From assembly GCF_963921235.1 (NCBI RefSeq), contig NC_086107.1, positions 95,048,001 to 95,112,000 of the forward strand: a DNA stretch of 64,000 nucleotides, read 5' to 3'. Both the position numbers and the translations under genes were made by a program. How positions within the stretch are numbered: the first letter of the stretch is position 1; the number at the start of each line of letters is the position of its first letter. This stretch comes from Mobula hypostoma. Its lineage: Eukaryota. Positions 524 to 53,486 of the stretch are shown here, one piece after another. The notes under the pieces were generated by a model that saw only the letters and a program-made list of their open reading frames with translations, was not told the DNA's origin and made no database searches.

Positions 524-557
524 TTCTGACGAAGGGTCTCAGCCCGAAACGTCGACT
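524..557 (+). ncRNA. Hammerhead core with truncated stem I
   Basis: CTGACGA 526-532, GAAA 546-549, GTC 551-553; the 5' strand of stem I is largely missing. Confidence 0.45.
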
Positions 558-2841
558 GTACCTCTTCCTAGAGATGCTGCCTGGCCTGCTGCGTTCACCA
601 GCAACTTTGATGTGTGTTGCTTGAATTTCCAGCATCTGCAGAATTCCTCGTGTTTGTGTTTTTAAATTATACATAAATTAGTTTGCATATCATAGAGGGC
701 TCAACTAGTTAAATGCCTCACTAAGCTAATCCCTTCACCCTCCACAATGTCCATACAAATCAAGGTAATAAAATGGAAAACTATTTAACAGTTGCAGAGA
801 GGGAGCACAGTACAGGCAGACAATAAGGTGCAAGGACCACAGTGAGGTAGATTGTGAAGTGAAAAGTCCGTCTTATCGTAACTAGCAGATCATTCAATAA
901 AATATAACTGCGGAGTAAAAATGAAAGTAAGTTTAAATTTATTATTAATGCTTATGCCACCATACTCACTGGAATTTAGAAGAATGAGGAGAGATCTCAC
1001 TGAAACCTATCGAATATTGGAAGGTGTAGATAGAGTGGATGTGGAGAGGATGTTTCCTACGCTGGGGGAGTCTAGGACCAGAGGGCACAGCTGCAGAAAA
1101 GAGGGACATCCATTTAGAACAGAGATGATGAGGAATTTCTTTAGCTAGAGGGTGGTGAATCTGTGGAACTCTTTACCACAGGCACTGTGGAGGCCAGGTC
1201 ATTGGGTGTATTGAAGGCAGGGGTTGATAGGTTCTTGATTAGTCAGGGCTTTGAAGGTTATGGGGAGAAGGCAGTAGAATGGGGTTGATAGGGAAATGGT
1301 GGAGCAGACTCGATGGGCTGAATGGCCTAATTCTGCTTCTATGTCCTGTGGTCTTATATGCTACCTTGAGATTCATTTTCTTGCAAGCATGTAGAGGAAA
1401 GTAAAGAAAAACAATAGAACTTGTGAAAAACTGTGCATAACAAAGACAGAGACAATGTGCAAAAGAAGACAAATCATGAAAATAGTAAAAAGTAAATGAA
1501 TAATGTTGAGAATGAGTCACAGAGTCTTTGAAAGTGAATCCATTGGAGTCTGTAGGTTGTGAAGTAGAGGTGAGTGAAGTTATCCACGCTGGTTCAGGAT
1601 CCTGATGGTTGTGGGGTAATAACTGTTACTGAACCTGGCAGTGTGTGACCTAAGACTCTTGAATCTCTTGCCCAGTGGTAGAAGCTATCCTTAAGCATGC
1701 CGGGATGTGCTTTCAGGCGTTTTTATCTTCTGCCCAGTGGGAGGGAGAAGGGAGAGTGTCCGGACTGGGAGGAATCATTGATTCTGCTGACTGCTTCATC
1801 GAGGCAGTGGGAAGTGTAGACAGGGTCCACTGTGTCTGCCACCCTCTGCAGTTTCTTTTGGTGACTGGCAGAAGAGTTACTGTACCAAGTCCTGATACAT
1901 CTGAGTAGGAGCTTTCTGTAGTGCACCGATTTAAAAATCGGTAAGGGTCAAAGAGGACATGCCAATTTTTATCTAGGTGTCCATGTGCGTCTATGGTATC
2001 TGTCTCCACCACCCCCACCACCCTTGGAGCTCATTCCAGGTACCTGCCACTCTCTGTGTAAAAAAAAAAGTTCTCCAAGCACCTCCTTTGAACTTATCCC
2101 CTTCACACCTTAAACGGATGCTCTCAGTTATTAGACATTTCAAACCTGGGAAAGAGATACCAGACAACTACTCTATCTGCACTTCTCAATCATCTCATAA
2201 ACTTTTATTTTCTACACAAAGAACACAGTTAGATCAAAGGCAAAGTCCATGATAGCACACAATAGTGTTGGTTTACTGCGGTGGTGATCAGGGTTGTGAT
2301 TGGGGTCAAGAACCTGCTGGTTGAAGGGAAGTTGCTGATCCTGAACCTGGTGGTGTGGAACTTCAGGCTTCTGTACCTTCTGCCCAGTGGGAGCTGTAGG
2401 GAGATGACAAGGCCCGAACGTTGGAGACCTTTGATGGTAGATGTTGCCTTTTTGAGGCAGTACCTCCTGAAGATACTACCGATGGTTAGGGAGGGATGTG
2501 GTCCTCTACTCCCTGTGCTTCTAACGTTCCTGCACATTCAGATTGCCATACCAGACCATGATGCAACCAGTGAGGGCACTTCCAACAGTGTATCTGTAGA
2601 AGTTTGTTTGTGTTCGGTGACAAACCAAATCTCCTTGAGCTCCTAACCTTAGGACAACCTCACTAGGGGAACTTCCCAGAGTTCTGATCTCGGAATTTCA
2701 GGAAGGTGGCAGGGGAAAGTGTTTGACAAATTGGGATGTCCCATGCCGAGCCTCCAGGATGTTCAGAGAGGCAACACTGGGGTGAGGGAGCTGCCTGGGC
2801 AATGTGTTCACACCCGTCTCCTCTCTTCTCATTGGCTGCAG

Positions 2842-3449: not shown

Positions 3450-4041
3450 GTGGGTGTCCTCTCCACCCTCCCTTCCATCACACTCCCCCTCCCCTATTCC
3501 CCTCTCTCTCCCCACCCCTGTTCCCCTCTGTCCACCCTCTTCTATCACACTCCCTCTCCTCCATTTCCCTCTCACCCCTATTCCCCTCTCTCCCCCTCCC
3601 TCACCCTCTCCTCCCCTCTCTCCCCCACCCTCCCTCTCTCTCTCCCCGTACCCCCTCCTCACTCTCTGTCCCCACCCTTCCCTACTCATTTCCTCTCCCC
3701 AGCCTTCTCTCTCTAACCCTCTCTTTCCCCACCTCCCACCACCTCTCCCTCCCCCTATCCCCCACTCTCCCTCTTCTCCTATATCTTCCACTCTCTTCTG
3801 TCCCACTCCTCCTCCTTTCCTTATTCTCCTCCCTCTCTCCCCTTTCTCCCTATCTCTCACCCCTCTCCCCCTACCTCTATCCCTTCCCCCTTTCTCACCC
3901 CTGCCTCTCCCCTCTTTCTCCCCCGCTTTTCCCCTCTCTCACCCTACCTTCTCTCCTCTTCTCTCTGGCCCCTCTCTCTTCCCCCTTTTCTCTCCCTCCC
4001 CAGACTCTGACACGCTGTTCCCTCTCTCCCCCACACCTCAG

Positions 4042-4203
4042 TGGTGAAGTGCGTGCTGATTGCCAGCCCTGGTTTCGTCAAAGAACACTTCTGCAATTAC
4101 ATGTTTGACCAGGCAGTGAAATCCGATCTCCGGCTCATCCTCGACAACCGCTCCAAGTTCCTACAGGTTCACTCCTCCTCTGGGCACAAGTACGCCCTTA
4201 AAG
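4042..4203 (+). CDS. PELO: Pelota coding exon
   Basis: ctcag|tg...aaa g|gtgagc; VVKCVLIASPGFVKEHFCNYMFDQAVKSDLRLILDNRSKFLQVHSSSGHKYALK. Confidence 0.96.
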
Positions 4204-4225
4204 GTGAGCCTCCTAATTGGGGTTA

Positions 4226-4422
4226 GTCCATGCATTCCACATCAGCCACGTTACCTCTCCCCCATCTACATGTCACTCCCTACTTTCCTGAGTGGGTTTC
4301 GTCCATGCACTCCCCATCTGCCACATTACCTCTCCCCCAACTACATGTCACTCCCTACTTTCCTGAGTGGGTTTCGTCCATGCACTCCCCATCTGCCACA
4401 TTACCTCTCCCCCATCTACATG
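4226..4422. repeat. 75-bp tandem repeat, about 2.6 copies
   Basis: gtccatgca starts at 4226, 4301 and 4376. Confidence 0.9.
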
Positions 4423-4794
4423 TTAGGAGTGTGACGGAACACTCCCCTAGGTCCAACAATTCTCAGGAAGCTCGGTGCCGTTCAGGTGCATGCTTGATCG
4501 GCTTCCTACCCACCCACCCCCCCCCCCAAAACACCACCTCCCTCCATTGGTTCAACACACTGCGGCCGCTCACCCAAACCTCGTGCCTCTCCTGGCCAGC
4601 ACCACATGCAGGTTCCCCATACACCCCACAACCCTCTCTCACCGGCTTCACTGTGGCCAGGACTGAATCCTGGATCTCCCTCAACCAACGGCACCATTGG
4701 AGCCCCGACACCAGAACAAACAGCAGACAGCCCACACTCAACGTTCCCTTTAACTTTTAGTACAGTTGCGTGGACCCAGCATGGCTCTGAGCAG

Positions 4795-5240
4795 CACACA
4801 CAAAATGCTGGTGAGCGCGGCAGGCCAGGCAGCATCTGTAGGAAGAAGTACGGTCGACTTCTTATTTTGTTAATGAAGTCAACGAGCTCAGCATGCGTGC
4901 AGGAAGCAGCACCAACGCAGTTGTCGATGTAGCGAAGCAAAAGTGGGGGACGGATGCCAGTATAGGCTTGGAACATGGACTGTTCCACAAAGCCAACAAA
5001 AAGGCAGGCGGGAATAGTCCATGTTCCAAGCCTATACTGGCATCCATCCCCCACTTTTCCTTCGCTATCTTAGCAACTGCATTGGCGCTGCTTCCTGCAC
5101 GCACGCTGAGCTCGTTGACTTCATTAACAGAATAAGAAGTCGACCATACTTCTTCCTATAGATGCTGTTTGGCCTGTCGTGTTCACCAGCATTTTGTGTG
5201 TGTTGCTTGAATTTCCAGCATCTGCAGATTTTCTCATGTT
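4795..5240. mobile_element. Penelope-like foldback insertion containing an RT fragment
   Basis: ~190-bp inverted arms; minus strand encodes ACLFVGFVEQSMFQAYTGIRPPLLLRYIDNCVGAASCTHAELVDFIN (RYIDD-type RT motif); TSD atggctc(t/c)gagcag at 4781-4794 and 5241-5254. Confidence 0.8.
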
Positions 5241-5559
5241 ATGGCTCCGAGCAGGAAGTTTTTGCCTGAAAATAGTGTGGTGCTATATTTTTGTAATATG
5301 CATACTATGAATATTGGATTGAAAATTGAAAAATCGCATACTTTTTATTTTATTTATTATTTGAAGGGTGTAATGGAATACAGTACAACCAAGAAAAGCT
5401 TTCACGTTTTGTAAACTTTTACTTGCTGCACGGCAACAAAGGCTAAGTGCACGGGAGCATTTCCGTTACTGAGTGGCCGTGTGCCAGCACAGCTTAGCGG
5501 GAACAGTGCTCACATTCACCTTCTCGGAGGTGATTAGGGATGGATGATGAACATAGACA

Positions 5560-5815
5560 ATTTCCCACCTTCGTGAGGGGATGCTTAGGGATGGGTGATA
5601 AATGCTGGCAATTTCCAACCTTCCCAAGGGGTTGATTAGGGATGGGCGATAAATGCTGGCAATTTCCAACCTTCCCAAGGGGTTGATTAGGGATGGGCGA
5701 TAAATGCTGGCAATTTCCATGCCTTCCCAAGGGGGTGATTAGGGATGGGTGATAAATGCTGGCAATTTCCCACCTTCCCAAGGGGGTGATTAGGGATGAG
5801 CGATAAATGCTGGGA
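5560..5815. repeat. 51-bp minisatellite, about 5 copies
   Basis: Unit gggttgattagggatgggcgataaatgctggcaatttccaaccttcccaag; inverted relatives at ~20650-20900 and 60880-60925. Confidence 0.9.
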
Positions 5816-6058: not shown

Positions 6059-7045
6059 GTGAGGTGTGGGGCTTGGTCTCTGTTATCCTCTCCCTGACTT
6101 TGTGAACCCTCCCTCCCCCATTGCCATAAATGCCACCAGTCCTTATGCCCCTCCCTCCTCTACACACCTCCCCATCTCTGACACCCTCCTTCCCCTACAC
6201 CACTTCCCTTTTCCATGAACCCTACCCACCCCTACACACCTCATCTCTGACACCTTCCTTCCCCTACACACCTCCTCATCTCTGACACCCTCCTTCTCCT
6301 ACACCCCCCCGTCTCTGTGACCTCTCCCCATCTCTATGAATTCCACCCACCCCTTCACCGTGACTCCTTCCCTCCCCTACTCCCTTGTCGTCTCTGTGAT
6401 CTCTTACCTCCCCTACACCCCTCCCCATTTCCATCACCCCCTGCCTTACCTAGACCCCTCCCCTCCCCTCCCCCACATCCCTCCCTCACTAACTGATGAG
6501 TCCATCCACTTGGAATCAGAGGCTGAAGGATTGTGGAAGTGAAAGTGACAGGAGGGATCATGTGATCGTTGTTTCTAAGGACAGTGTGCGGAAAGGATAG
6601 GGAGCAGAGGGGGAAGGAGAGGGAGAATGAGAGAAGGGGTAGAAGGAGGGAGGAGACAACAATGGAGTGGTAGTGGGGGGGAGGGGAGAGGTTGAGAGGA
6701 GGAGGAGTGAAGGGAGAAGGAAGGAGCCTGTTAAAAGGGAGGGGTTGAGGAGGGGAGAAAGTAGGGAAGAAGGAGGGAGGGGAAAAAAGGAGAGGGGACT
6801 GGAGAGAGAGGGGATTGGAGTGGAACAGAAGGGTGCGAAGGAGGGGAGAGTAGAGAATGAAAGGGGGGAGAAGGAAGGAGGGGTAGGACAGGTAGGGAGG
6901 GTGGAGTTCAAGAAGGGGAATAGATGGGGTGGGGAATTGAAGTAGATATCCACCTTGGTTTCCCTTTCCCACACCCCCAGCCCCATTTACATCTATATTC
7001 TCTGTACCTACTTAACCTGCCCCTCTCCTTCCCCACCCATAACAG

Positions 7046-7119
7046 GCAGCTGGGGAAGTGAAAGCGCTGGAAGATTTCTACAAGATGCTGAAACAAGAGC
7101 CGGACCGAGCCTTCTACGG
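7046..7119 (+). CDS. PELO: Pelota coding exon
   Basis: aacag|gca...tac gg|gtaggt; AAGEVKALEDFYKMLKQEPDRAFYG. Confidence 0.95.
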
Positions 7120-7257
7120 GTAGGTGTGGGCGAGAGGAGTCCGTGCGGTGAGGAAGGGGATTCTGTGGGGTGGGTGAGAGACAACTGAGAAGGAGGGCAG
7201 AGAAGGGTAAGGGGGGGGGGAATGAAGATAAAGAGAGGAAGGGAGTGTGAGGCAGAA

Positions 7258-9170
7258 GCTCCCTCCCTCCTCTGCTCCTCCCCCTCCCTCCCCCTCCCTC
7301 CCTCTCTCCCCCTCCCTCCCCCCCTCTCCCCCTCCCTCCCCCCCCTCTCTCCCCCTCCCTCCCCCTCCCTCTCTCCCCCTCCCTCCCCCTCTCCCCCTCT
7401 CTCCCCCTCTCCCCCTCTCTCCCCCTCTCCCCTCCCTCCCCCTCTCTCCCCCTCTCCCCTCCCTCCCCCTCCCTCCCCCTCTCCCCCTCCCTCTCCCTCT
7501 CCCCCTCCCTCCCTCTCCCTCTCCCCCTCCCTCCCCCTCCCTCCCCCTCCCTCCCCCTCCCTCCCCCTCCCTCCCCCTCTCTCCCCCTCCCTCCCCCTCT
7601 CTCCCCCTCTCCCCCTCCCTCCCCCTCTCTCCCCCTCTCCCTCTCCCCCTCCCTCCCCCTCTCCCCCTCCCTCCCCCTCTCCCCCTCCTCCCCTCCTCCC
7701 TCCCCCTCCCTCCCCCTCCCTCTCTCCCTCCCCCTCCCTCCCTCTCTCCCTCCCCCTCCCTCCCTCTCTCCCTCCCCCTCCCTCTCTCCCTCCCCCTCTC
7801 CCTCCCCCTCCCTCCCTCTCTCCCTCCCCCTCCCTCCCCCTCCCTCCCTCTCCCCCTCCCCCCCTCCCTCCCTCTCTCCCTCCCCCCCTCCCTCCCTCTC
7901 TCCCTCCCCCCCTCCCTCCCTCTCTCCCTCTCCCCCCCTCCCTCCCTCTCTCCCTCTCCCCCTCTCCCCCTCCCCCCCTCCCTCCCTCTCCCCCTCCCCC
8001 TCCCTCCCTCTCCCCCTCCCCCTCCCTCCCTCTCCCCCTCCCCCTCCCTCCCTCCCTCCCTCCCTCCCCCTCCCTCCCTCCCTCTCTCCCTCCCCCTCCC
8101 TCCCTCCCTCTCTCCCTCCCCCTCCCTCCCTCCCTCTCTCCCTCCCCCTCCCTCTCTCCCTCCCCCTCCCTCCCTCTCTCCCTCCTCCCTCCCTCCCTCC
8201 CTCCCCCTCCCTCCCTCTCTCCCTCTCCCTCCCCCCCTCCCCCTCCCTCCCTCCCTCTCTCCCTCCCCCCCTCCCTCTCTCCCTCCCCCCCTCCCTCTCT
8301 CCCTCCCCCTCCCTCCCTCTCTCCCTCCCACTCCCTCCCTCTCTCCCTCACACTCCCTCCCTCTCTCCCTCACACTCCCTCCCTCTCTCCCTCCCTCCCC
8401 TCCCTCCCTCCTCCCTCCCTCCCTCCCTCTCTCCCTCCCCCTCCCTCCCTCTCTCCCTCCCCCTCCCCTCTCCCTCCCCCTCTCCCTCCCCCTCCCCTCC
8501 CCCCTCCCCCTCCCCCTCCCCCTCCCCCTCCCCCTCCCCCCCTCTCCCCCCTCCTCCCTCTCCCCCCCTCCTCCCTCTCCCTCTCCCTCTCCCCCTCCCC
8601 CTCCCCCTCCACCCCCCCTCCCCCTCCCCCTCCCTCCCTCTCTCCCTCCCCCTCCCTCCCTCTCTCCCTCACACTCCCTCCCTCTCTCCCTCACACTCCC
8701 TCCCACTCTCCCTCACACTCCCTCCCTCTCTCCCTCACACTCCCTCCCTCTCTCCCTCACACTCCCTCCCTCTCTCCCTCACCCTCCCTCCCTCTCCCTC
8801 CCCCTCCCTCCCTCTCCCTCCCTCTCTCCCTCCCTCTCCCTCCCTCTCTCCCTCCCCCTCCCTCTCTCCCTCCCAACTCCCCCTCTTCCTCCCCTTCTCA
8901 CACCATTTCCCCTCCCCTTCTCTCCCCATTTCCCCTCCCCTTCTCTCCCCATTTCCCCTCCCCTTCTCTCCCCATTCCCCCTTCTCTCCCCACTCCCCCT
9001 CCCCTTCTCTCCCCACTCCCCCTCCCCTTCTCTCCCCACTCTCCCTCTCTCTCTCCCCATTCCCTCTCTCCCCCTCCCCCTCTACCCATCCCCCTTCTCT
9101 CCCATCCCCCTCTACCCCTACCCTCACTGCCCCCACTCCTCCTCCCCCTCTCCCACCCCCTCCCTCTCTG
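7258..9170. repeat. ~1.9-kb C/T low-complexity tract
   Basis: Almost exclusively C and T on the + strand; similar tracts at ~3470-4035, 18760-19720, 25050-25420, 29915-30340 and 45760-46190. Confidence 0.95.
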
Positions 9171-9716
9171 CCTAAATCACAGCCTCACTGGGCGTGTCTC
9201 AGCACAGAATCAGAAGCCCAGGTGTGTTTTCAGAAGTTTGCAACCTCCCAGATACTGGGAAAGAACCAGGGGATTTCTGCCCAGCTGCTTCATTATCGTG
9301 GGAGGATCATTAACCCTTTGCTATCAGCCTGATAGGACAATGTGGTGGAAGCTTCACTCCGTCTAACCTCAGGAATGTATGATGGGACAGTATGGAGGCA
9401 TCTTCACTCTGTGATTGACCCCAGGGAGTGTGTGATGGGATGGTGTGGAGGAACTTCACTCTGTGTTTGACCCAGGAGTGTGTGATGGGACAGTGAGGAG
9501 GGAGCTTTGTGTCTGACCCCAGGGAGTGTGTGATGGGATGGTGTGACGGAGCTTCACTCTGTGTCTGTCTCTGTGGGTATGCAATAGGATGGTGAGGAGG
9601 GAGCTTCCCTCTGTGATTGATCCTAGGAGTGTGTGATGGGATGGTGTGGAGGAACTTCACTCTGTGTCTGATCCAGGAGTGCGTGATGGGACAGTGAGGA
9701 GGGAGCTTCCCTCTGT

Positions 9717-10782: not shown

Positions 10783-11303
10783 TGTGACTGACCCCAGGAG
10801 TGTGTGATGGGACAGTGTGACCTCACCAACCAGGGTTTACTGTTGGTGCAGATGTTAATTTTGGTAATTGCTTCTGTGGTGAAGGGTGTCAAAAGTAACA
10901 AAACTAAAACAGTGGTGTTGTGGACCTTGTGGAAGGTAGATGGTCTTTGTAGGTTACAGTGGGGCATTGACAGGACACAGAAGTGGCAGATGGAGTTCAA
11001 CCTGGAAAAGTGTGAAGTGATTTACCTAGGAAGGTCGAACTTGAGAACAAAGTACAGGTTTAAGGTGAGAAGGGGAAGGTGGAAAAATGCAGGCTTTTCC
11101 CATGTAGGAGGCAGTGACATATGGAATGAGCTGCCACAGAAGTGGATAGGCGGCTACAATTAAAAGACACAAAACAAGCACGGACAGGAAAGGTGGGCTA
11201 AATACAGGCAGGTGGGAGCAGCTCGGGAGAGCACAGGGGTCAGGAGTTGGCAGAAGGACCTGCTTCCATGGTGTTAATGAATGAATTCTGACCCCTCCCC
11301 CAG

Positions 11304-11375
11304 GGTGAAGCAAGTGGAGAAGGCAAACGAGGCCCTGGCCGTGGAAACCCTCCTCATTTCCGACAGTCTCTTCAG
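11304..11375 (+). CDS. PELO: Pelota coding exon
   Basis: ccccag|g gtg...ttc ag|gtgagt; VKQVEKANEALAVETLLISDSLFR. Confidence 0.95.
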
Positions 11376-12777
11376 GTGAGTTCACCTGTCACTCCCGTTC
11401 CCCTTTCAGTTGCGGGGTTGGGGTGGGTGAGCGTAATTTGCCCAGATCACTCCTGGCCTTCCATGAGAGGGAAAAGAACTTCTCTCACCATGCCGCCTGC
11501 ACCCCGCCTCTCTCCCCCCACAGCGGACCTGGGGCGAGCGCACAGCAGAATTCCACAAGTGACTGAAGGAGGTGGCTGGTCCCAGGAGAGGAGGGAGGAG
11601 TTGTGGAAGGTGAGGTCTTTCTCCTTCCTCCCATCCATCCCACCCTTCCTCTCTTCCCCCTCTCTGAGCCCTCCACAATCCCATTCCCACCATCCCTCCG
11701 TCTCTAACCCCTCCTGTCACACCACTGACTCTCCCTTTCCCTCCCTGACACACTCACACTCTCTCTCTCTCTCTCTCACTCTCTGTCTCCCCTTCTCCCC
11801 CTCTCCATCACTCCGTCTCTCTCTCCCTTTCTCTGTCTCACACACTCCCTCCTTCCCGTGTCCCAGTCTGCTGAGCTAACCACTGTTGAGTTGTGCTTGT
11901 CGGGCCTAGATGAGTACCTTTGATCCCTCTTGCCTTTCATGTCTCCCTGCCAGGGAATTTTCTGTGCCTGGGCTCAAATTGTCTCCCATCCCTCCCCCTT
12001 GCGTCCCAGATTTGGAATGAATCCAGATTCCCGGCAACTCTACATAATTGGAATACTCTTCACTAACCCACCAATCCCGCCTTACCCTCCCTGCTCTTTC
12101 CCCCCTGCTTGTGTACAGCGAGGTCCCTCCATCCCATTCATGATGTATGTCCTACCCTCTGTCCCTCAACACTCCTCACCATTCACGGTGTGTCCTACCC
12201 TCATACACTGAACTCCCTCTGTCCCTCGTTACTCTCCACCATTCAAGGCGTGTCTAACCCTTGTATACCGAGGTCTCTCTGTTTCTCAATAATCCCCACC
12301 ATTCACTGTGTGTGTCATACCCTTGTATACCGAGGTCTCTGTTCCTCTGTTGTTTGATGTTCTAGTACCAGAACCATGCCGGTGATCCTGCAGTGGGTCT
12401 GACCCAGAGGAATACAGAGACAGGAGCTGTACACGGTGATCCCGGTGTGGGTCTGACCCAGGAGAATATGGAGACAGGAACTGCGCCCACATATCCTGGT
12501 GGGGGGGGGGTCTGACCCAGAGGAATACAGAGACAGGAACTGTGCATGGTGATTCTGGTGTGGGTCTGACCTGGAGGATACAGGGACAGGAACTGTGCAC
12601 GGTGATCCCGGTGTGGGTCTGACCCAGGAGATACAGAGACAGGAACTGTGCACGGTGAACCCAGTGTGGGTCTGACCCAGGGGATACTGAGATGGGAAAC
12701 GTGTGAGCACATGTCTCAGGAGGATACTGAGGCCAGAAACATGAAGACTACTCTTCCTCTTTCTTCCCCTTCAACAG

Positions 12778-17570: not shown

Positions 17571-19740
17571 AACCAATTGCAATAAAGAACCGAAGAAGAA
17601 AGAATCTGATCGGAGAGGACAGTGGGCATTAGAATAAAGGGAAGGAGGTGGGAATCAGAAGAAGGTGATGGCCAGGTTGTGAGAACAGAAGAGAGAAAGG
17701 AGTGAGAGGGTCACTAGAATGGGTGAAAACAAGAAAAGGTGAGGGGAGAATCTCTTATAATGAGTTCTGCCCCTTCCTTTCCAGTTCTGGTAAGGGGTCT
17801 CGGCCTGAAATGTCAACTGCTTATTCCTCTCCGTCGATGTTGCCTGACCTGCTGAGTTCCTTCAGCATTTTGTGTATGCTACTCATGAGTTCCAGCAGCT
17901 GCAGAATCTCTTGTGTCCCTGACTTGGGAGTATTATGTTCCCTCCCGTTTGGTCACCCTGGTGTGGAAAAGAAGACATTAAGCTGGAAAGAGTGCAAGGG
18001 AGATTTCTGAGGATGTTGCTGGGACTTGAGAGACTGAGTTATACAGAAAGGTTGGGCAGGTTGAGACTTTGTTCCTTGGAGTGCGAGGGTGACATTATAG
18101 AGGTGTATAAAGCCATGAGGGGCCAAGGTAGAGCAAATGCACACAAGTCTTTTTCCCTAGGGCTGGGGTGGGGGGGGGGGGAATCAAGAATTAGAGGGCG
18201 CAGGTTTAAGGTGAGAGGAGAGACATTTAATAGGAACTTGAGGGACAACCTTTTCATTCAGATGGTGTCGATATGTGGAATGAGCTGCCAGAGAGGATGG
18301 TACAGTAACACCATTTAAAAGACACTTGGACAACATGTGGATAGGAAAGGTGTAGAGGGATTTGGCCAGATGTGGACAAATAGGACCAGCTTGGAAGGAA
18401 GTCTTGGTTGGCATGGACCAGTTGGGCCAGAGGGCCTGGTTATCTGCTGTGTGACCCTAATCAGTGGTAGGACAGTGGACAGTGTCGGTGGACCTCAAGG
18501 ATCCTCTGGACAAGTCCCTAGCTCCTTGATAGTGGCTGCACAAGTTACCAAGCTCTTCACCTCCTCCTTGTCCAGGGAGTGGCGGTCCCATTGGGATCTA
18601 TCCCAAGTCAGATGAGGCAGAGATTGTTCGGAAGGAGGGATGGAGGTCGAGGGAGTATGAGGGTGGGGGGGGGGAGGGATGGACCAGGGTGAGGGTGGGT
18701 GGTGGGAGGTCATCAGGGGGAGACACTCACTCTAACCTTTTGTTCCACCCTCTCTGTCCTCATCCCTCTACTTCTCCCCTCCTCTCTCCCTCCCTCATCC
18801 CTCCTTCCACCTCTCCTCACCTCTCACCACCTCCTCTTCCCTTCCTGTCCATCTCTTCCTCCTCCATCTCCACTTCCCTCTCCTCCTCTATCTCCACTTC
18901 CCTCTCCTCCCCATCTCCCCTTCCCTCTCCTCCTCTCTCTCACCTCCCTCCCCTCCTCCATCTCCCCTTCCCTCTCCTCCTCTCTCTCACCTCCCTCTTC
19001 TCCTCCATCTCCCCTTCCCTCTCCTCCTCCATCTCCCCTTCCCTCTCCTCCTCCATCTCCCCTTCCCTCTCCTCCTCTCTCTCACCTCCCTCCCCTCCTC
19101 CATCCCCTCTCCTCCTCCATCTCCCCTTCCCTCTCCTCCTCTCTCTCACCTCCCTCCCCTCCTCCATCTCCCCTTCCCTCTCCTCCTCCATCTCCCCTTC
19201 CCTCTCCTCCTCCATCTCCCCTTCCCTCTCCTCCTCCATCTCCCCTTCCCTCTCCTCCTCTCTCTCACCTCCCTCCCCTCCTCCATCTCCCCTTCCCTCT
19301 CCCCCTCTATCTCCCCTTCCCTCTCCTCCTCCATCTCCCCTTCCCTCTCCCCCTCTCTCTCACCTCCCTCCCCTCCTCGCTCCTTCCTCTCCCCTTCACT
19401 CTCTCCACACTTCCCCCTCCCTCCCTGTTCTTCCTCCCCTCTTTCTTCCTTTTCTTCTTCTCCCCCTCTCTCCCCATCCTTCCCTCCCTCATACCCATCC
19501 CTCCTTCCTCTACCCACTTCCTTTCCCTCCTTCCCCTTCCTCTCCTCCCTCCCTCCCATCTTTCTCCCCTTCCTTTTCCCACTCCCATCTTCCTCCCGCT
19601 CTCCTTTTGTCTCCTTTTCTCTCCCCACCCATCCTCCCTTCCTCTACCCACTCCCTTTCCCTCCTTCCCCCTCCCTTTCCCCATCTTCCCCCTCCCTCTC
19701 TCTCCTGCATCCTTACTCCTCCACATTCCGGCCACCACAG

Positions 19741-19772
19741 GATGTTTTCCAGTCTCCACGTCTCCGGAGAAC
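19741..19772 (+). CDS. PELO: Pelota 32-nt coding exon
   Basis: ccacag|g atg...gaa c|gtgagt; MFSSLHVSGEQ (human IFSSLHVSGEQ). Confidence 0.93.
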
Positions 19773-20298
19773 GTGAGTATATCTTACCTCTGTGTGCACA
19801 CCCCTGCCTTCCTGCCCCTCCCCAGCTTGATGGGATCTTCCTCTGCTCCCTCCCCACCAGCTGCTCTTGGCCAGTCCGTGGAGTCGGCCCCTTCTGGATC
19901 GTAGGACTTTATCCCCAAAACCAGCTCACCAGCCTGTGGGTGGGGCTGTGGGAGGCGGGAGGGGGGGTGTTCCCAAGAGGGGTCCTGACTCAGAGTCTGG
20001 ACGGGAGAGAACACTAAGATGAATGTGTGTCTCTTCTCCCTCCCTCTTTCCCAAACCTTTCTCTCCCTGCTGCCAACCCTTCCCCCTTCCATGATCTCCT
20101 TCTCCCCACTGAGCTCTGCCTCTCCCAATTCTCCCCTTCCCTCTCTTTCTGACCCCCACCTATTTCCCATTCATCCCAATCCCCTCTGCACCTTCTCTTC
20201 TCCCTCTCATCTCCCCACCTCTCTCTTCCCCTCTCCCACTTCTATCTCTCCTCCCTCTCTCCTCCACTCTCCCTCTCCTTTCTCCCTTACTCCTCTAG

Positions 20299-23724: not shown

Positions 23725-25969
23725 TTATACACTAACAAGAGAAATCCTGCAGATGCTGAAAATCCGAGCAACACACACACAAAATGCTGGAAGAACTCAG
23801 CAGGCCAGGACAGCATCTAGGAAAAGACAGAACAGTTGTAGATAAAGGCGGAGAAATTAGCAGATGGCGTTTAATCCGGCCAAGTTTGAGGTGTTGCACT
23901 TGGGAGTCAAATGGAAAGAGAGAGGACGCAGTTAACGGCAGGACCCTTAACAGCATTGATGTTTATAGGGATCTTGAGATCCAAGTCTACAGTTCCCTGA
24001 AACTGGTCGCAGGCGTAAGCAAGGTGGTAAAGGCGGCGTACGGCATGCTCGCCTTCGGTGGTCGGGGCATTGAATATGCGAGTCAGCTTTCAGCAGTCGA
24101 AAACTCTGGTTGGCCCGCATCTCAAGTATTGCATTCAGATCTGCTCGCATCTTTACAGGAACGGTGTGTGTGTGTGTGTGTGTGGTGGTGGGGGGGGGGG
24201 GGAGCTTTGGGGAGGTTCACCAGGATGCTGTCTGGATTAGAGGGCATGGAGATAGAAGGAGAGGTTGTTTCCCCTGGGGCGGCGGAGGCTGGTGGGGGGA
24301 GAGAGACGTGATATAAGTTTATCAGGTTATGAAAGGCACAGACAGGGTAGACAGTCGGCATCCTTTCCCATATTTGAGATGTCTAATACCAGCGGGTAAG
24401 CACTTAAGGTGCGAGGGGAAAAATTTCAAAGATGTACGGGGCTAGTTGTTTTTTTACACAGAGCGGCGGCACATACGAGTTATTTCTGCGTGGAGAAAAT
24501 GGAGTGATTTGGACCACATACAGGCAGAAGTTCTTTAAATTTAATCTGGAACCATGTTCAGCACAGGCATCGTGGGCCGAAAGGCCGGTTCCTGTGCTGT
24601 ACTATTCTACGTTCTGTGATCTATTTGGGCATGTAGGGGTTAACACAAGCCTTCGGGGTACAAATGGGTACGGGAACTGTTCCAACATCAGGGGCTTTGA
24701 TGAAAGCTCTTCGAGAGAAATCCAAAGAAACTTTCTCTTTAACATCAATCGAAATCTCAAACAGCTTCTCGAGCACAAGGCTCACACTTCAAACGATAGC
24801 AGCGCCGGGAGAAATCATCTCCCTGGAATAGACCCAGTCCTCTCTCACGCACACCTACGTCCGTGCTTTCTACCGAGTGAGTGTACGAGTAAATACCTGG
24901 GGTGAGGGGAGAGGTCGGTGTGTTTGTGGGGAGAGAACGGCGTCTGACGGTCCACGGACGGGCGGGGTCGGAGAAGAGAATTGTGTGTCCAGTGGCAGGT
25001 TCCGGGAAGGGGGGGGGGGGGGATGGTGTGAGGGAGTTGGATGAACATCACCTTTTCCCTTCGCTCGCCTCTCTCTGCCCCCTCCCACTTATTTCTCTTT
25101 CCTCCCCTTTGCCTGCTCCTCTCCAACTCCCACCCCTTTCTTAACCCGCTTCCACCTCCTCTCTTTCATCTCATTCCCCCTTCCCCTCTCTCTCTCACTG
25201 TCGCACTCTCCCTATCCCTCACCTCTCCTGCCCCCACCCTCTCTCCTCTCTCACTCCCCCTCCCTTCCCACTCTTGCTCCCTCTTCTCCCAGTCCCTCTC
25301 TTTCTCCTTCACCCCCTTTCCCCCTTCGCCCTATCCCGCTTCCTCCCTCTCCTGCACGTTCTCCTCCTTCCCCTTTCTCTTTCATCCTCCCTCATTCCCT
25401 TCTCTCCCGACCTCCCACAGACGAGTAAGGAGAGCTCCGCCTCCCCACCCCTCCCACCCCCTGCTCCTCTTAAACAGGGAACAGGTGATGCCTCGTTCAG
25501 TCTGCCTGGATCGGTCCTGCACCCTGGGTAATTCCGCCGGCGAGAGAGACAGAGAGACGGTGGACGTGTCTGCCAGAGTCTCGAACAGACCTACATGCTC
25601 CTGGTGCCGGGTTGGGAACAGACAGAAGAAGAGAGGGTACCGATGCCGGCGGAGGGCAGGTGTCTCCGCCTTGGGGCTTGATCCGTTGCTTGTTCCATCG
25701 TGAGGACTCAGGTCCTGGGACACTGATTAGCTCCTGAGAGGCACTCCCTTTCTATTCCCCCCCCCCCTCCCTCACCCCTCTCTCTCCCCCTTCTCTCTCC
25801 CTTCCTCCTCCCTCCCTGTCCCTCACTGTCACCTCTCCCTCCCTCCTTCCTTCCCCATCTCTCTCCTTCCCCTAACATCGACAACCACTCTCCTCTTCAC
25901 CCTCAATTTTGCTATTTTACCCTCTCTCCCTCCTTCCTCCTGTTGGGTGTTCTTCCAGAAAGACCAGCG

Positions 25970-30568: not shown

Positions 30569-31103
30569 GTGAGTACCCTCACATCGTCGCTGACCCACTC
30601 GCCCCTTGCACGCTCACAAATGTATCATTTCTTGCTTCCTGGTTGACTACTGCACATCCACCAATGCACTAATTCCCTGCACACTCACCAGTGCACTGAT
30701 TTCTACACACTTGCCAACACACTGAATTACTTTCTCACTCACTAATCTATTCACCTCTCACCAGTGCACCCATATCTTCTTACTAATGTGTGCATGTCTT
30801 GCACACTCACCAATGATTGGTTTCTTGTACACTTGCCAATGCACTAATTTCAGGCATGCTCATTTACACACTATTTTCTAGCATACTTGCCATGCACTGA
30901 ATTCTTACCCACTGGTGCACAGAATCCTTGCACACTTGCCATTGCACCATTTTCTCACATGCTTGCCAGTGCGATGATCTCCTCTCACCAAGTGCCCTAT
31001 GCACCAATTTTGTGCACACTCACAAGTGCAGTAGGTTAAGCAACACACATCAAAGTTGCTGGTGAACGCAGCAGGCCAGGCAGCATCTCTAGGAAGCGGT
31101 GCA

Positions 31104-31137
31104 GTCGACGTTTCAGGCCGAGACCCTTCGTCAGGAC
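31104..31137 (-). ncRNA. Minimal type I hammerhead ribozyme motif
   Basis: Minus strand gtc-CTGACGA-agggtctcggcct-GAAA-c-GTC-gac; insertion flanked by 9-bp TSD cagtaggtt (31029-31037; 31137-31145). Confidence 0.6.
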
Positions 31138-31495
31138 AGTAGGTTCTTGCACATACGCACAAATGTGCACATTTCCTGAACCCTTGCAAGCACACTTTTC
31201 TGTGCGCTAATTCCCAAATGCTTTCAGCTGCACCAACTCTTGCAGGCAAGAACACCAATTTCTCCACGGAAATGCAATAGTTTCTGGCACACTCACTCAC
31301 AAATGTACTAGTTTCTTGCACACCCAATGCACTATTCCCTGTACACTATGCACTAGCCTCCTACTCTTACTCACAAATGCACACGTGCACCCCCTTTTGT
31401 GAATGCCCCCACCCCTACCGAACATGCAGCCTGTGGGGGGGGGGTGCAGACCGCTGCCAGTTGGAGCCCCACTTACCCCCCGCCCATCTCCACAG

Positions 31496-31620
31496 TGCCA
31501 GGCTACCTGGGCTGCTTCGTGGATACGGGGAGCCCGGCGACGCTGAGTGGCAGCAGCGGCACCTCCACCAAACTCACGGTCCAGGTCTGCGTCCGGTTCT
31601 GCCGCAGGAAGGGCTACGAG
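31496..31620 (+). CDS. KREMEN2: Kremen2 WSC domain exon a
   Basis: MPGYLGCFVDTGSPATLSGSSGTSTKLTVQVCVRFCRRKGYE; cacag|tg...gag|gtaggc. Confidence 0.95.
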
Positions 31621-32732
31621 GTAGGCTCTGCCACGGACGGTGGGTGTGGGGAACCGTTCACACTCCCCGCTAGCAGTGCATGGCCACCCTGTATACATTA
31701 TCACCTGTGTGCGTGCATCTCCCTGTATACACGCTCGCCAGCAGTGCATTCCGCACACGACTTCATACATGATTCTCCCCGTGTGCATGCAGCTTCCCGC
31801 ACACATCACGCTGCCCGACCTGCTGAGTTCCTCCAGCGTGTTGTGAGTGTTGCTTTGGCCCCAGCATCTGCAGAGTATCATTGCCCGCGCACATCGCCCT
31901 GCATGCACACTCACTGGTGTGCACACGAATCCACGTGCAAATGCTCGCCAGCTCTCCTGCTGCAGTCCGCACCCCAGCTTTGCTGCCCTGTCTACGCGCA
32001 TTTCTTCATAAATTATATTTATGAAATAGAATTTCTTTATTTTCCTGCAAGAAAACGAATCTCAGGGTACCATTTGGTAACATTATATGTATTATGACTT
32101 TGACCTCGTCGCGTTTGTACTTTCCTGTGGTCCTCACGGACTTGCATCGGCTTGCGTTCGGAGGGGTGCTGAGAGAACGTCTCGGCCCTGGTGGCGTCGG
32201 GAGGGGGAGCCAAGTTGCCTGCTTACGGGAGCAGGGCAGGAGTGGAGAGGGGCGCCCCTCCCCCCGCATTCCAGTGGAGTGAGAGCCGATGATAGTGCGT
32301 GTGTGAGTGAGAGTGTGTCTGCCCTTGTGTGCCCGAGTTGTCTGTGTGCATCACTTTGGTGTCTGTGTGTGTGATTTTGAGTGTGCATCTTCGTGTGTGA
32401 GTGTGTGTGCCAATCGTTCTGCGTCGTGTTAGTGTGTACCGGGGTGCTGAGTGTGCGAGGGGTGAGGATGGGCAGAGACCCCAGCCCCGAGATCCGTAGG
32501 AGGGAATAGGTAACGGGGTTGGGGTTGTTAGACCCACCATTGCCGCCCCCCCCCCACCGTAGTGCACAGTACAGGACGAGAGGGGGGCCTTGGAGAGGTG
32601 TGGTGAGTCAGAGAGGTGATGGGAGGAGGGAGACGTGAGTTGGACGAACGTTGGACGGGGGGGGGCGGTTGGCTGAGTCGGGACCACCAGATCTTCATCA
32701 CCGCTCTCCCCCCCCCCCCCCCACCACCTTAG

Positions 32733-32886
32733 TTGGCAGGACTGGAGGCGGGATACGCCTGTTTCTGCGGCAGCCGGTCGGACCTGCGCGGACAGAGACG
32801 GACCAGCCTGCTGGAGTGCAACCAAGTCTGCTTCGGGCAGTCCAGCCAGCTGTGTGGGGGCGACGGGCGTCTCGGGGTCTACGAGG
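32733..32886 (+). CDS. KREMEN2: Kremen2 WSC domain exon b
   Basis: LAGLEAGYACFCGSRSDLRGQRRTSLLECNQVCFGQSSQLCGGDGRLGVYE; ttag|...g|gtgagt. Confidence 0.95.
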
Positions 32887-33383
32887 GTGAGTCTGGGGGG
32901 AGGGGAGAGGGGAGAAGGAGGGAGTGAAGGGGGGAAGGTGGGGAGAGGAGAAAGGGAAGGGAGAAGATCCCAGACAGGGGAAGTCTTTCTCAGGGAAGGG
33001 GAGAAGCAGAGGCTTGAGGGAGAGGGGAGGGTCACAGTGGATTGGGAAGGGAGGGACCGGGCAGGAGAATGGGAACTAGAGGACTGGGAGGGGGAAAGGA
33101 GAGCAGGGATTTGGAAAGGAGAGGATACAAGAGGGGTGGGGGTGGGGGAGGGGGAAGGTCCCAGGAGAAAGAGGGAAGGTGAGGAGAGAGAGGGGAGAGT
33201 GAAGGGATGGGGAGGAGAGTGGAGGGGGAGAGAGGAGATTGGGAAGGTGAGGGGGAGAGAGGGGAGAGTGAAGGGATGGGGAGAGGAGATTGAGGAGGTG
33301 AAGGGTGAGCAGTGTGGATTGGGAGGGAGAATGGGAGAGGGGAGGAGTATTCCTTAACCCTTCCCCTTCCTTCTCTCCCCCAG

Positions 33384-33716
33384 TGTCCGTGGGGTCATGT
33401 GGGGGAGATCTGCGCTCCCGCTCTGGTGTAATCTACTCCCCAGAATACCCGGATACCTACAAGCCAGACTCGGAGTGTTTCTGGGACCTGCGGCTACCAG
33501 CCGCCCAGGCCGTTGAACTGGACATCCGCCTGTTTGAGCTGCGAGAGGGGGGCGACCGGCTGGAAGTGCAGGAGGGGCGGACAGGGCTGCAGCTGGCCAC
33601 CTTCGCTGGGGGGAGCTCCCCCCTGGGGACCCACCGCTTCCACGCCAGCTGGATCCGGCTCCGGTTCCTCTCCAACTCTGTCCACCAGGGTCAGGGATTC
33701 GCACTGGTTTACCGAG
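33384..33716 (+). CDS. KREMEN2: Kremen2 CUB domain exon
   Basis: VSVGSCGGDLRSRSGVIYSPEYPDTYKPDSECFW...FLSNSVHQGQGFALVYRG; canonical splice sites. Confidence 0.95.
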
Positions 33717-34062
33717 GTGAGATCTGGGGAAGGCTCACTCGCTTCACTAATCCCACCTCTTCACTCCGCCTCTCCCTCCCTCCCTCCCTCCCTCCAGTCC
33801 AGCCCCCAAACTCACTCCGTGCCAGTCAACAGAGGCTCCCTCAAAGTGTCATGACCCTCCCTCTTCCCCCTCCTCCTCCCCACTCCTTTCATCCCCTTCA
33901 CACTGATCTACAGAGGCGAGATCTGGGTGGGGGAGGCTAGCTTGCTCCACACAGCCCCAACCTCCTGACCCTCTTCACTTCACCTCTCTCCTCCTTTATC
34001 TTCCTTGCCCCCTCATCACCTCTATTCCCTTTTCCCTCTCCCTCTCTCCCCCACCATCGCTT

Positions 34063-41352: not shown

Positions 41353-43603
41353 ACTATAATATGATAAGTTTTAATCTACAATTTGAGAGGGAGAAGGGAA
41401 GATCGGAAGTGTTAGTATTACAGTTGAAGAAAGGAGACTATGGACCCATGAGGGAGGAGCTGGCCAAAGTTGACTGGAAAGATATCCTAGCAGGGATGAC
41501 AGTGGTATTTCTGGGAATAATACAGAAGGTGCAGGATCAGTTCATTCCAAAGAGGAAGAAGGATTCTAAGGGGAGTAAGGGGCGACCGTGGAAGACAAGG
41601 GAAGTCAAGGACAGTATAAAAATAAGAGAGAGGAAGTATAACATAGCAAGGATGAGTGGGAAGCCAGAGGATTGGGAGACTTTTAAGGAGCAACAGAAGA
41701 TAACTAAAAAGGCAATACGGGGGGAAAAGATGAGGTACGAAGGTAAGCTAGCCAAGAATATAAAGGAGGATAGTAAAAGCTTCTTTAGGTATGTGAAGAG
41801 GAAAAAATTAGTTAAGACCAAAGTCGGGCCCTTGAAGACAGAAACGGGTGAAATTATTACGGGGAACAAGGAAATGGCAGACGAGCTGAACAGGTACTTT
41901 GGATCTGTCTTCACTAGGGAAGACACAAACAATCTCCCAGATGTAATAGTGGCCAGAGGACCTAGGATAACAGAGGAACTGAAGTAAATTCACATCAGGC
42001 ACAAAATGGTGTTGGGTAAACTGATGGGACTGAAGGCTGATAAATCCCCAGGGCCGGATGGTCTGCATCCCAGGGTACTTAAGGAGGTGGCTCTAGAAAT
42101 CGTGGATGCATTGGTAATCATTTTCCAATGTTCTATAGATTCAGGATCAGTTTCTGCAGATTGGAGGGTAGCTAATGTTATCCCATTTTTTAAGAAAGTA
42201 GGGAGAGAGAAAACAGGCAATTATAGACCAGTTAGTCTGACATCAGTGGTGGGGAAGATGTTGGAATTAATTATAAAAGATGAAATAGCGGCATATTTGG
42301 ATAGCAGTGGCAGGATAGGTCCGAGTCAGCATGGATTTATGAATGGGAAATTATGCTTGACTAATCTTCTGGAATTTTTTGAGAATATAACTGAAAATGG
42401 ACATGGAAAAGCCAGTGGATGTAGTGTACCTGGGCTTTCAGAAAGCCTTTGATAAGGTCCCACATAGGAGGTTAGTGGGCAAAATTAGAGCAAATGGTAT
42501 TGGGGGTAGGGTGCTGACAGGGATAGAAAATTGGTTGGCAGACAGGAAACAAAGAGCAGGGATTAATGGGTCCTTTTCAGAATGGCAGGCAGTGACTATT
42601 GGGGTACCGCAAGGCTCGGTGCTGGGACCGCAGCTATCTACAATATACATTAATGATTTAGATGAAGGGATCAAAAGTAACATTAGCAAATTTGCAGATG
42701 ACACAAAGCTGGGTGGCAGTGTGAAATGTGAGGAGAATGTTATGAGAATGCAGGGTGACTTGGACAGGCTGGGTGAGTGGGCGGATGCAGTTTAATGTGG
42801 ATAAATGTGAGGTTATCCACTTTGGTGGTAAGAACAGGATGGCAGATTACTATCTGAATAGTGTCAAGTTAGGAAAAGGGGAAGTACAACAAGGTCTAGG
42901 TGTCCTTGTACATCAGTCACTGAAAGTAAGCATGCAGGTACAGCAGGCAGTGAAGAAAGCTAATGGCATGTTGGTCTTCATAACAAGGGGAATTGAGTAT
43001 AGGAGCAAAGAGGTCCTTCTGCAGTTGTACAGGGCCCTGGGGGTGAGACCACACCTGGAGAATTGTGTACAGTTTTTGTCTCCAAATTTGAGGAAGGACA
43101 TTCTAGCTATTGAGGAAGTGCAGTGTAGGTTCACGAGGTTAATTCCCGGGATGGCGGGACTGTCATATGTTGAAAGATTAGAGCGACTGGGCTTGTATAC
43201 ACTGGAATTTAGAAGGATGAGAGGAGATCTGATTGAAACATATAAGATTATTAAGGGATTGGACACGCTAGAGGCAGGAAACATGTTCCCGATGTTGGGG
43301 GAGTCCAGAACCAGAGGCCACAGTTTAAGAATAGGGGTAGACCATTTAGAACGGAGTTGAGGAAAAACTTTTTCACACAGAGGGTTGTAGTTCTGTGGAA
43401 TGCTCTGCCTCAGAAGGCAGTGGAGGCCAATTCTCAGGATTTTTTCAAGGAAGAGTTAGATAGAGCTCTTAAAGATAGTGGAGTCAAGGGATATGGGGAG
43501 AAGGCAGGAAAAGGGTACTGATTGTGAATGATCAGCCATGATCACAGTGAATGGTGGTGCTGTCTCAAAGGGCTGAATGGCCTACACCTATTGTCTGTTG
43601 TCT
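41353..43603 (+). mobile_element. 5'-truncated CR1 LINE with RT domain, relatively young
   Basis: KSPGPDGLHPRVLKE, NYRPVSLTSVVGK, FQKAFDKVPH, GVPQGSVLGP, KFADDTKLGG; few frameshifts; ctattgt tail; TSD aaatg. Confidence 0.92.
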
Positions 43604-53398: not shown

Positions 53399-53434
53399 AG
53401 TCGACGTTTCAGGCGGAGACCCTTCGTCAGGACT
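53399..53434 (-). ncRNA. Minimal type I hammerhead ribozyme motif
   Basis: Minus strand agtc-CTGACGA-agggtctccgcct-GAAA-c-GTC-gact; 4-bp stem I intact. Confidence 0.65.
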
Positions 53435-53450
53435 AACTCTTCCTTCAGTT

Positions 53451-53486
53451 AGTCCTGACGAAGGGTCTCGGCCTGAAATGTCGACT
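53451..53486 (+). ncRNA. Minimal type I hammerhead ribozyme motif (C>T change in the stem III palindrome)
   Basis: agtc-CTGACGA-agggtctcggcct-GAAA-t-GTC-gact. Confidence 0.55.

What the first reader, a model, noticed from the sequence alone, without database searches (positions are those of the whole stretch)
4781..5254. Foldback PLE insertion whose RT/terminus junction lies at the predicted ribozyme cleavage site
Seen: a near-perfect ~190-bp inverted repeat with a ~24-nt spacer and a 14-bp TSD inside a PELO intron. In both arms an internal RT fragment (SMFQAYTG...RYID...ELVDFIN) is joined through a short filler (agaataagaa) to gtc|gac... (5139-5142; mirror 4855-4858). The terminal repeat therefore starts at the GUC site and lacks the upstream hammerhead core. 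Inference: RT ran off the 5' end of a self-cleaved RNA, switched template to the ORF, and the product was then duplicated in inverted form. That would be a fossil record of ribozyme activity in vivo.
Basis: partly seen in the sequence, partly recalled or inferred. Interest (0 to 1): 0.72.

Follow-up and report, generated by a model that had tools for sequence, protein, structure and literature searches.

The report
Ordinary head-to-head Penelope-like element insertion
This is an old insertion of two truncated, inverted copies of a Penelope-like retrotransposon in a PELO intron, a usual shape for this element family, and its odd internal junction beside the hammerhead ribozyme site is not good evidence that the ribozyme cut the RNA.

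Summary
Arms 4790-4986 and 5011-5207 are 197 nt and 90% complementary. They are flanked by a 14-bp duplication (13/14) and lie in a PELO intron. Both arms carry the same junction: RT fragment, 10-nt filler, then GTC|GAC. In 25 of 28 longer copies the two joined parts lie 1265-1465 nt apart. GTC|GAC there follows CUGAYGA...GAAAC, a minimal hammerhead, so the predicted cleavage site is placed correctly.

- The junction keeps GUC, which lies 5' of the scissile bond.
- Neither arm can be a copy of the other. The "spacer" is RT sequence continuing the left arm, and only the right arm has the 33-bp PLE tail.
- A genome-wide pattern census shows no peak at the site. Breaks number 335 at -9..-5, 493 at -4..+1 and 627 at +3..+7, against 31,965 intact copies. 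The 5' edge of the hammerhead gives 10,349.
- Most junctions at GTC/GAC are foldbacks or small deletions with GAC/GTC microhomology.

Inverted 5'-truncated copies with a one-sided tail are published PLE features.

Verdict: this is a new member of a known kind, made by priming on both target strands from one aberrant template. Ribozyme run-off is possible but unproven, at about 0.2.

The parts
4781..4794 (.). left copy of the target-site duplication (ATGGCTCTGAGCAG); its last bases overlap the end of the left arm
   Evidence: sister-species contig spans this junction (X5 record 17, 4301-4846)
4790..4858 (-). left arm, 3' terminus of the element from GTC|GAC to the short (tail-less) 3' end
   Evidence: profile positions 87-159; 43 of 118 family hits end at this short class
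4859..4868 (-). left arm, 10-nt filler (reads AAAATAAGAA on the - strand)
4869..5009 (-). left arm, RT-coding fragment (reference copy positions 154-294), including the so-called 24-nt spacer 4987-5010
   Evidence: 92.9% over 141 nt; translation
5011..5128 (+). right arm, RT-coding fragment (reference copy positions 177-294), ends ...ELVDFIN
   Evidence: 90.7% over 118 nt
5129..5138 (+). right arm, 10-nt filler AGAATAAGAA of unknown origin
5139..5207 (+). right arm, terminus beginning with GTC (5139-5141) and GAC (5142-5144); the predicted hammerhead scissile bond lies between 5141 and 5142
5208..5240 (+). 33-bp PLE 'tail', present on the right arm only
   Evidence: 59 of 118 family hits carry it; matches the 30-40-bp one-sided tail of PMC8557442 and PMC11167929
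5241..5254 (.). right copy of the target-site duplication (ATGGCTCCGAGCAG)

Best explanation
This is one old insertion event of an endonuclease-bearing Penelope-like element (PLE) of the Penelope/Poseidon type, in an intron of PELO.

Proposed course of events:
1. The target was cut with a 14-bp stagger.
2. Both 3' ends primed reverse transcription. One started at the inner RT start site and gave the left arm without a tail. The other started 33 nt further out and gave the right arm with a tail.
3. Both cDNAs copied the same short aberrant template, about 330-360 nt long. In it an RT-coding piece was already joined, through 10 unexplained bases, to the element's terminus at GUCGAC.
4. The two cDNAs ran to within 23 nt of each other and were joined head to head.

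The internal junction is best read as a template switch, or a deletion, at the palindromic GUCGAC. It does not need ribozyme cleavage.

Shown: the anatomy, the family, the non-native junction, the uniqueness of the junction, and the lack of a peak at the site.
Inferred: priming on both strands, one common template, and a template switch as the origin of the junction.
For: Family. Longer copies encode RT followed by GIY-YIG. Both matches are weak: RVT_1 E 0.0014 and GIY-YIG E 0.00065-0.015, below Pfam's cut-offs. They end with a minimal hammerhead plus about 70 or 103 nt.

Shape. Head-to-head partners occur in many sampled loci, for example L003, L011, L015, L030, L050, L059, L064, L066 and window 53301-53526. 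Among the first 100 of the 31,965 intact matches, 4 tight inverted pairs appear.

3' ends. They are bimodal: 59 long and 43 short of 118.

Literature. PMC8557442 (section 6 passages read) describes 5' truncation, an adjacent inverted 5'-truncated copy and a 30-40-bp tail, often at one end only. PMC11167929 (main text read) shows a PLE protein that cuts and extends both strands and starts RT at two sites, with the tail lying between them.

Common template. Only the two arms carry the whole junction (40 scored of 92 candidates). The arms differ at both ends.

Age. The arms differ at 20 of 197 positions. A sister-species contig spans the left junction.

No need for cleavage. Break counts are 335, 493 and 627 in three adjacent 5-nt windows, against 31,965 intact copies. 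By my eye, about 65 of the 100 shown junctions at -4..+1 join other parts of the same element, often sharing GAC or GTC.
Against: - Nothing shows directly that both strands primed here.
- Two cDNAs from one RNA molecule is an unusual demand. No master copy with the deletion was found.
- The filler is unexplained. The 10-mer with up to 1 mismatch is common in the sample (55 hits).
- Within -4..+1 the breaks with unrelated upstream sequence sit at -3 (8) and at -2..+1 (13) of 100 shown, with 5 of those 13 having C at -1. Among 100 shown of 2,729, I count about 5 clean breaks at +1 against 1-3 at each of +2..+7. A small true excess at the scissile bond is therefore not excluded.
- Class counts were made by eye from 7-17 bases of context. 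Only the commonest sequence variant, with exact 28-nt anchors, was counted.
Confidence: 0.6

Rival explanations
1. The hammerhead cut the RNA at GUC|GAC. RT ran off the new 5' end and jumped to the RT-coding region. On this reading the GTC in front of GAC is not the ribozyme's GUC. It belongs to the filler, for example as a few bases copied in inverted sense from the terminus.
For: - The junction sits within 3 nt of the predicted scissile bond.
- The filler plus GTC shares AAGAAGT..C with the reverse complement of the terminus start (read).
- Ten of 69 junctions that break exactly at -3 are perfect palindromes centred on the bond, so a GTC can come from an inverted GAC.
- Unbiased sample cases start at or near +1: window 23734-23838(-) and the L045 foldback.
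- I count about 5 clean +1 breaks against 1-3 at each of +2..+7 among 100 shown.
- PMC11167929 reports protein-assisted cleavage by a PLE hammerhead in vitro.
Against: - There is no excess at 5-nt resolution: 493 against 335 and 627.
- Breaks at the site are about 1.5% as many as intact copies before correction (493 against 31,965).
- Another palindrome, GTAC at +5..+8, is also a foldback centre (8 of 100). This points to microhomology and not to cleavage.
- The 7-base match of the filler needs a gap and may be chance.
- PMC11167929 found that uncleaved RNA was the main template in vitro and saw no RNA-seq reads ending at the site in Anolis.
Confidence: 0.2
2. A deleted, non-autonomous master copy existed in the genome. 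Its deletion arose at the DNA level or in an earlier round of copying. Its transcripts supplied two identical RNAs for this insertion.
For: - Both arms share the deletion and the filler.
- Non-autonomous PLE derivatives are described (PMC8557442 passages; abstract of bioRxiv 10.64898/2026.07.22.740005).
- Other copies have internal deletions: L025 has a gap of 882 nt in place of about 1,326.
Against: The junction search found only the two arms (40 scored of 92 candidates). An amplifying master would be expected to leave more copies.
Confidence: 0.13
3. Snap-back or later inverted duplication. One arm was made first, and the other was copied from it, either as a hairpin cDNA or by a later genomic rearrangement.
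For: - The arms have nearly equal length with a short offset.
- Foldbacks with 14-24-nt offsets recur in the family, for example the CCAGGCAGCA|CCTCTTCC class, 13 of 100 shown.
Against: - The left arm holds reference positions 154-176, which the right arm lacks.
- The right arm holds the 33-bp tail, which the left arm lacks. Neither can be the full template of the other.
- The duplication flanks the whole unit.
Confidence: 0.07

Closest known systems
Canonical EN+ Penelope-like elements (Penelope/Poseidon clade), as described in PMC8557442 and for the Anolis element PAc in PMC11167929
   Same: - RT followed by GIY-YIG.
- Frequent 5' truncation.
- An inverted 5'-truncated copy joined head to head.
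- A 30-40-bp tail on one side.
- A hammerhead about 70-100 nt before the unit's end.
- Two classes of 3' end.
   Different: Both arms carry a 1.3-kb internal deletion with a filler, which is not a described regular feature. Clade assignment was not tested by phylogeny.
Minimal (dimer-type) hammerhead ribozymes of PLEs (PMC4209133)
   Same: - CUGAnGA and GAAA core.
- An unpaired base 5' of helix II.
- A 4-bp helix II.
- No real helix III, but a short palindrome (ACGU within GUCGAC).
- Very many dispersed copies, often in pairs on opposite strands.
   Different: The copy in this finding lacks the core altogether. No Rfam model detects the family's motif in the window at E up to 10. Activity was not tested.
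L1 twin priming and 5' inversions (recalled, not read here)
   Same: The second target strand primes reverse transcription, giving an inverted segment within one pair of target-site duplications.
   Different: In L1 the inverted part is a different, more 5' segment primed internally. Here both arms start at the element's regular 3' start sites and cover the same region.
R2 and other non-LTR elements whose 5' ends are set by an HDV-like ribozyme (recalled, not read here)
   Same: The idea that a self-cleaving ribozyme defines the 5' end of the RNA template and so leaves a mark in genomic copies.
   Different: Here 5' ends cluster at the 5' edge of the hammerhead, not at its scissile bond.

Membership tests
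Penelope-like element (EN+) | Reverse transcriptase domain | tested here: inconclusive
   A longer copy (L018), read through 3 stops as X, gives RVT_1 E 0.0014 and 18.8 bits, below the cut-off of 29.6. The arms match the RT-coding part of that copy family at 90-93%.
Penelope-like element (EN+) | GIY-YIG endonuclease C-terminal to the RT | tested here: inconclusive
   GIY-YIG E 0.00065 (20.4 bits, cut-off 22.6) on L018 2285-2620, downstream of the RT part. It is absent from the arms themselves.
Penelope-like element (EN+) | Insertion anatomy: 5' truncation, inverted or tandem partial copies, one-sided 30-40-bp tail | tested here: met
   compared with PMC8557442 section 6 and PMC11167929.
Penelope-like element (EN+) | Hammerhead motif in the terminal repeat | tested here: met
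   Most of the 118 family hits carry CUGAYGA-A-GGGUCUCGGCCC-GAAAC-GUC before GAC. The MFE fold gives helix I and helix II. The two arms of this locus lack it.
Hammerhead ribozyme (Rfam type I/III models) | Match to a curated covariance model | tested here: not met
   No hammerhead hit in the window at the gathering score or at E up to 10, although the window holds several full motifs. Minimal PLE variants lack helix III.
Hammerhead ribozyme | Self-cleavage at GUC|GAC | not testable with these tools
   No RNA holder was listed. No raw reads were available.
Ribozyme-defined 5' end (template ends at the scissile bond) | The junction or 5' end coincides with the first base after the scissile bond, and copies pile up there | tested here: not met
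   The junction retains GTC. Break counts are 335, 493 and 627 in adjacent windows. The hammerhead's 5' edge gives 10,349.

The most novel reading that the evidence does not exclude
The small classes of copies that begin exactly at the base after GUC are genuine genomic footprints of in-vivo hammerhead cleavage of PLE RNA. These classes comprise simple 5' ends, perfect palindromic foldbacks centred on the bond, and this locus if its GTC is an inverted GAC. That would mean a minority of templates, at most a few per cent, were cleaved before or during reverse transcription.
Probability: 0.2. Interest if true: 0.6.

Novelty: new member of a known kind. Interest (0 to 1): 0.27.

Why it matters
The role of hammerhead ribozymes in endonuclease-bearing PLEs is an open question. 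PMC8557442 calls it unclear. PMC11167929 found cleavage dispensable in vitro and saw no cleaved RNA ends in Anolis.

A genome with tens of thousands of copies can serve as a natural record of where templates ended. This locus alone says little. The census made to test it suggests that templates were overwhelmingly uncleaved at the hammerhead. It also suggests that their 5' ends lay at the ribozyme's 5' edge. That fits the in-vitro picture and gives a concrete, checkable prediction.

The locus also places a 197-bp hairpin in PELO pre-mRNA. No effect of that hairpin was tested.

Tried and rejected
- Rfam scans of the window, at gathering score and at E up to 10: no hammerhead.
- A terminus-only DNA query on the own genome: 0 candidates, because its words are too common. 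I used pattern searches instead.
I obtained 80 kb. They held few copies.
- Origin of the filler: the 10-mer with up to 1 mismatch has 55 hits in 324 kb and is purine-rich low complexity. No source was identified.
- RNA evidence for expression, editing or small RNAs of the hairpin: no RNA holder was listed. The laid runs were contigs dominated by other copies of the repeat, so nothing could be said about A-to-I editing.
- Earlier findings of this scan: nothing for this place.
- Splicing as the cause of the deletion: rejected, because there is a filler and no GT...AG at the edges.
- A paper search for Penelope + hammerhead + 'template switch' gave 3 papers, none on this question (listing only). 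I therefore found no published map of PLE 5' ends against the hammerhead site. This rests only.
- A second literature search failed on a term format and was not repeated.

Full report
**What is there.**
- The window is part of a 3.48-Gb eukaryotic assembly.
- At 4790-4986 and 5011-5207 lie two arms of 197 nt, 90% complementary and 24 nt apart.
- They differ at 20 positions, of which 18 are transitions and 8 lie in CpG context.
- The unit is flanked by ATGGCTC[T/C]GAGCAG at 4781-4794 and 5241-5254.
- As RNA the stretch folds into one long hairpin of -374.9 kcal/mol, z -35.

**Host gene.** The host gene is PELO, on the + strand.
- ORF 2727-3053 matches Pelota residues 125-180 (5lzw, E 7e-24).
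- eRF1_2 positions 73-121 lie at 4011-4223.
- eRF1_3 positions 2-25 and 26-49 lie at 7043-7120 and 11281-11376. Both are weak but colinear.
- The insertion is therefore intronic.

**The family.**
- The RT-like part of the arms (window 5011-5128) has many relatives in the genome. A search gave 2,937 first-look candidates, of which 40 were scored, all at 90-92% identity.
- Longer copies carry an RT-like region followed by a GIY-YIG-like region. Both score only below Pfam's cut-offs in one decayed copy read through three stops.
- In 25 of 28 fetched loci, the point where the arms' RT fragment ends and the point where their terminus begins lie 1265-1465 nt apart. One locus has 882 nt and two have no terminus in reach. 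The junction in the window is therefore not native sequence.

**The hammerhead.**
- In the longer copies the bases before GTCGAC read ...AGTC CTGAYGA A GGGTCTCGGCCC GAAAC.
- This has the hammerhead core boxes, an unpaired base before a 4-bp helix II, and a short palindrome in place of helix III.
- It fits the minimal, dimer-type hammerheads of PLEs described in PMC4209133 (passages read).
- An MFE fold gives helices I and II.
- Rfam's models do not detect it.

**Anatomy of the two arms.**
- Aligned to a longer copy, the left arm covers reference positions 154-294 (window 5009 down to 4869). The right arm covers 177-294. The 24-nt 'spacer' is thus the continuation of the left arm.
- At the outer ends the right arm runs 33 nt further (5208-5240), up to the duplication. 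The left arm stops at ...GTGTGTGCTGC.
- In the family these are two regular kinds of 3' end. Of 118 profile hits in 294 kb, 59 end with the tail and 43 end 25-40 nt earlier.
- PMC11167929 (main text read) shows for an Anolis PLE that RT starts at two internal sites, with the 30-40-bp 'tail' between them. It also shows that the protein cuts and extends both DNA strands.
- PMC8557442 (section 6 passages) lists inverted 5'-truncated copies and a one-sided tail as typical.
- Neither arm can be a complete copy of the other, yet both share the deletion and the filler. The simplest reading is that both target strands primed on the same aberrant template.
- Only these two arms carry the full junction in the genome search (40 scored of 92 candidates).

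**How common the shape is.**
- Head-to-head pairs occur in many sampled loci.
- A second one lies in this window at 53301-53526.
- In the part of the sample not chosen through a search (the window plus eight 10-kb stretches), I count about 7 foldbacks among about 22 insertions, by eye.

**Is the junction a mark of ribozyme cleavage?**

First, the arms keep GTC, which belongs to the 5' cleavage product.

Second, I counted junctions genome-wide. The patterns require an exact 28-nt anchor and three leading bases that all differ from the family's usual bases. Random sequence passes that filter in 27 of 64 cases.

| Class | Count |
|---|---|
| Intact copies (AAAY GTC GAC...) | 31,965 |
| Breaks at -9..-5 | 335 |
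| Breaks at -4..+1 | 493 |
| Breaks at +3..+7 | 627 |
| Breaks in the 9 nt before CUGA | 10,349 |

So there is no peak at the scissile bond at this resolution. The strong hot spot is at the 5' edge of the hammerhead. In the local sample many short copies and foldbacks also begin at that edge.

**Classes among the junctions (my counts by eye).**

Of the 100 shown junctions at -4..+1:
- about 38 have an antisense piece of the hammerhead or terminus upstream, sharing GAC or GTC;
- about 27 are sense deletions or tandems;
- 12 have a pyrimidine run plus GTC;
- 8 have unrelated sequence plus GTC;
- 13 have unrelated sequence without GTC;
- 2 are unclear.

Of the 69 junctions that break exactly at -3:
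- 10 are perfect palindromes centred on the bond;
- 12-15 have unrelated upstream sequence.

A second palindrome, GTAC at +5..+8, is also a foldback centre (8 of 100). Palindromes and 3-nt repeats therefore explain most of the pattern.

- Among 100 shown of 2,729, I count about 5 clean breaks at +1 against 1-3 at each of +2..+7.
- The window holds one copy that starts at about +1, at 23734-23838(-). L045 holds a foldback whose arms start at about +1 and +3.
- The palindromes show that a GTC before GAC can be an inverted GAC.
- The filler plus GTC shares seven bases with the inverted terminus start, but only with a gap.
- A small share of cleaved templates is therefore not excluded.

**Age.**
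- A DNA run of a second species holds 0.37 of the locus's sampled words.
- One of its contigs spans the left flank and 52 nt of the left arm, with 16 differences and 5 gaps over 546 nt.
- Another contig covers 5215-5315. It reaches only 26 nt into the tail, which is under the 31-letter rule for bridging.
- That run reads T at 5248, which makes the duplication perfect there. The insertion therefore predates the split of the two species.

**Limits.**
- Counts cover only the commonest sequence variant.
- Classes were assigned by eye from 7-17 bases of context.
- No RNA data were available.
- Supplements of the cited papers were not read.

Noticed in passing
genome-wide; examples window 524-655, 31036-31137(-), 50233-50331; L062 1575-1707: 5' ends and foldback centres of this family pile up within a few bases of ...AGTC|CTGA, the 5' edge of the hammerhead. 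There are 10,349 pattern matches, and most of the 100 shown keep (A)GTC. This gives very many copies of about 100-130 nt. One possible reading is that the RNA's 5' end (transcription start in the terminal repeat) lies there.
   Followed up: partly
window 53301-53526: A second short head-to-head foldback of the same family. Both arms keep the hammerhead and meet just 5' of it.
   Followed up: partly
L018 1349-2284; L021 1264-1887(-); window 4869-4985(-): Copies read RYIDN where an RT catalytic YxDD would be expected. I saw this in two longer copies and in the left arm. I did not check whether it is the family's true state.
   Followed up: no
terminus of family copies, e.g. window 554-655: From the ATG about 22 nt after the cleavage site, the frame stays open to the end of the unit. 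This recalls the Anolis element, whose ORF starts inside the hammerhead region (PMC11167929). Seen by eye only.
   Followed up: no
genome-wide, e.g. L065 2747-2892: A recurrent foldback junction, CCAGGCAGCA|CCTCTTCC, makes up 13 of 100 shown. One arm starts at about +22 and the other at about +8. Either it is a hot spot or it is an amplified variant.
   Followed up: no
window 5526-5700: Three copies of a 73-nt unit spaced 51 nt apart, 77% alike (GGGGATGCTTAGGGATGG...), just downstream of the insertion.
   Followed up: no
window about 7100-9400 and 18500-20000: Long strand-asymmetric, GC-rich, low-complexity tracts (GC skew down to -0.62). They give spurious plant-miRNA Rfam hits below threshold. 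They lie around the PELO eRF1_3 exon at 7043-7120.
   Followed up: no
window 31357-33937 (+): ORFs with a WSC domain (E 9.4e-7) and a CUB domain (E 4.4e-16). These are probably exons of another gene downstream of PELO.
   Followed up: no
window 41988-42792 (+), 56850-57350 (-): Other retroelement remains. These are RVT_1 pieces (E 2.4e-5 and 9.6e-13) and an integrase zinc-binding domain (E 3.6e-8).
   Followed up: no
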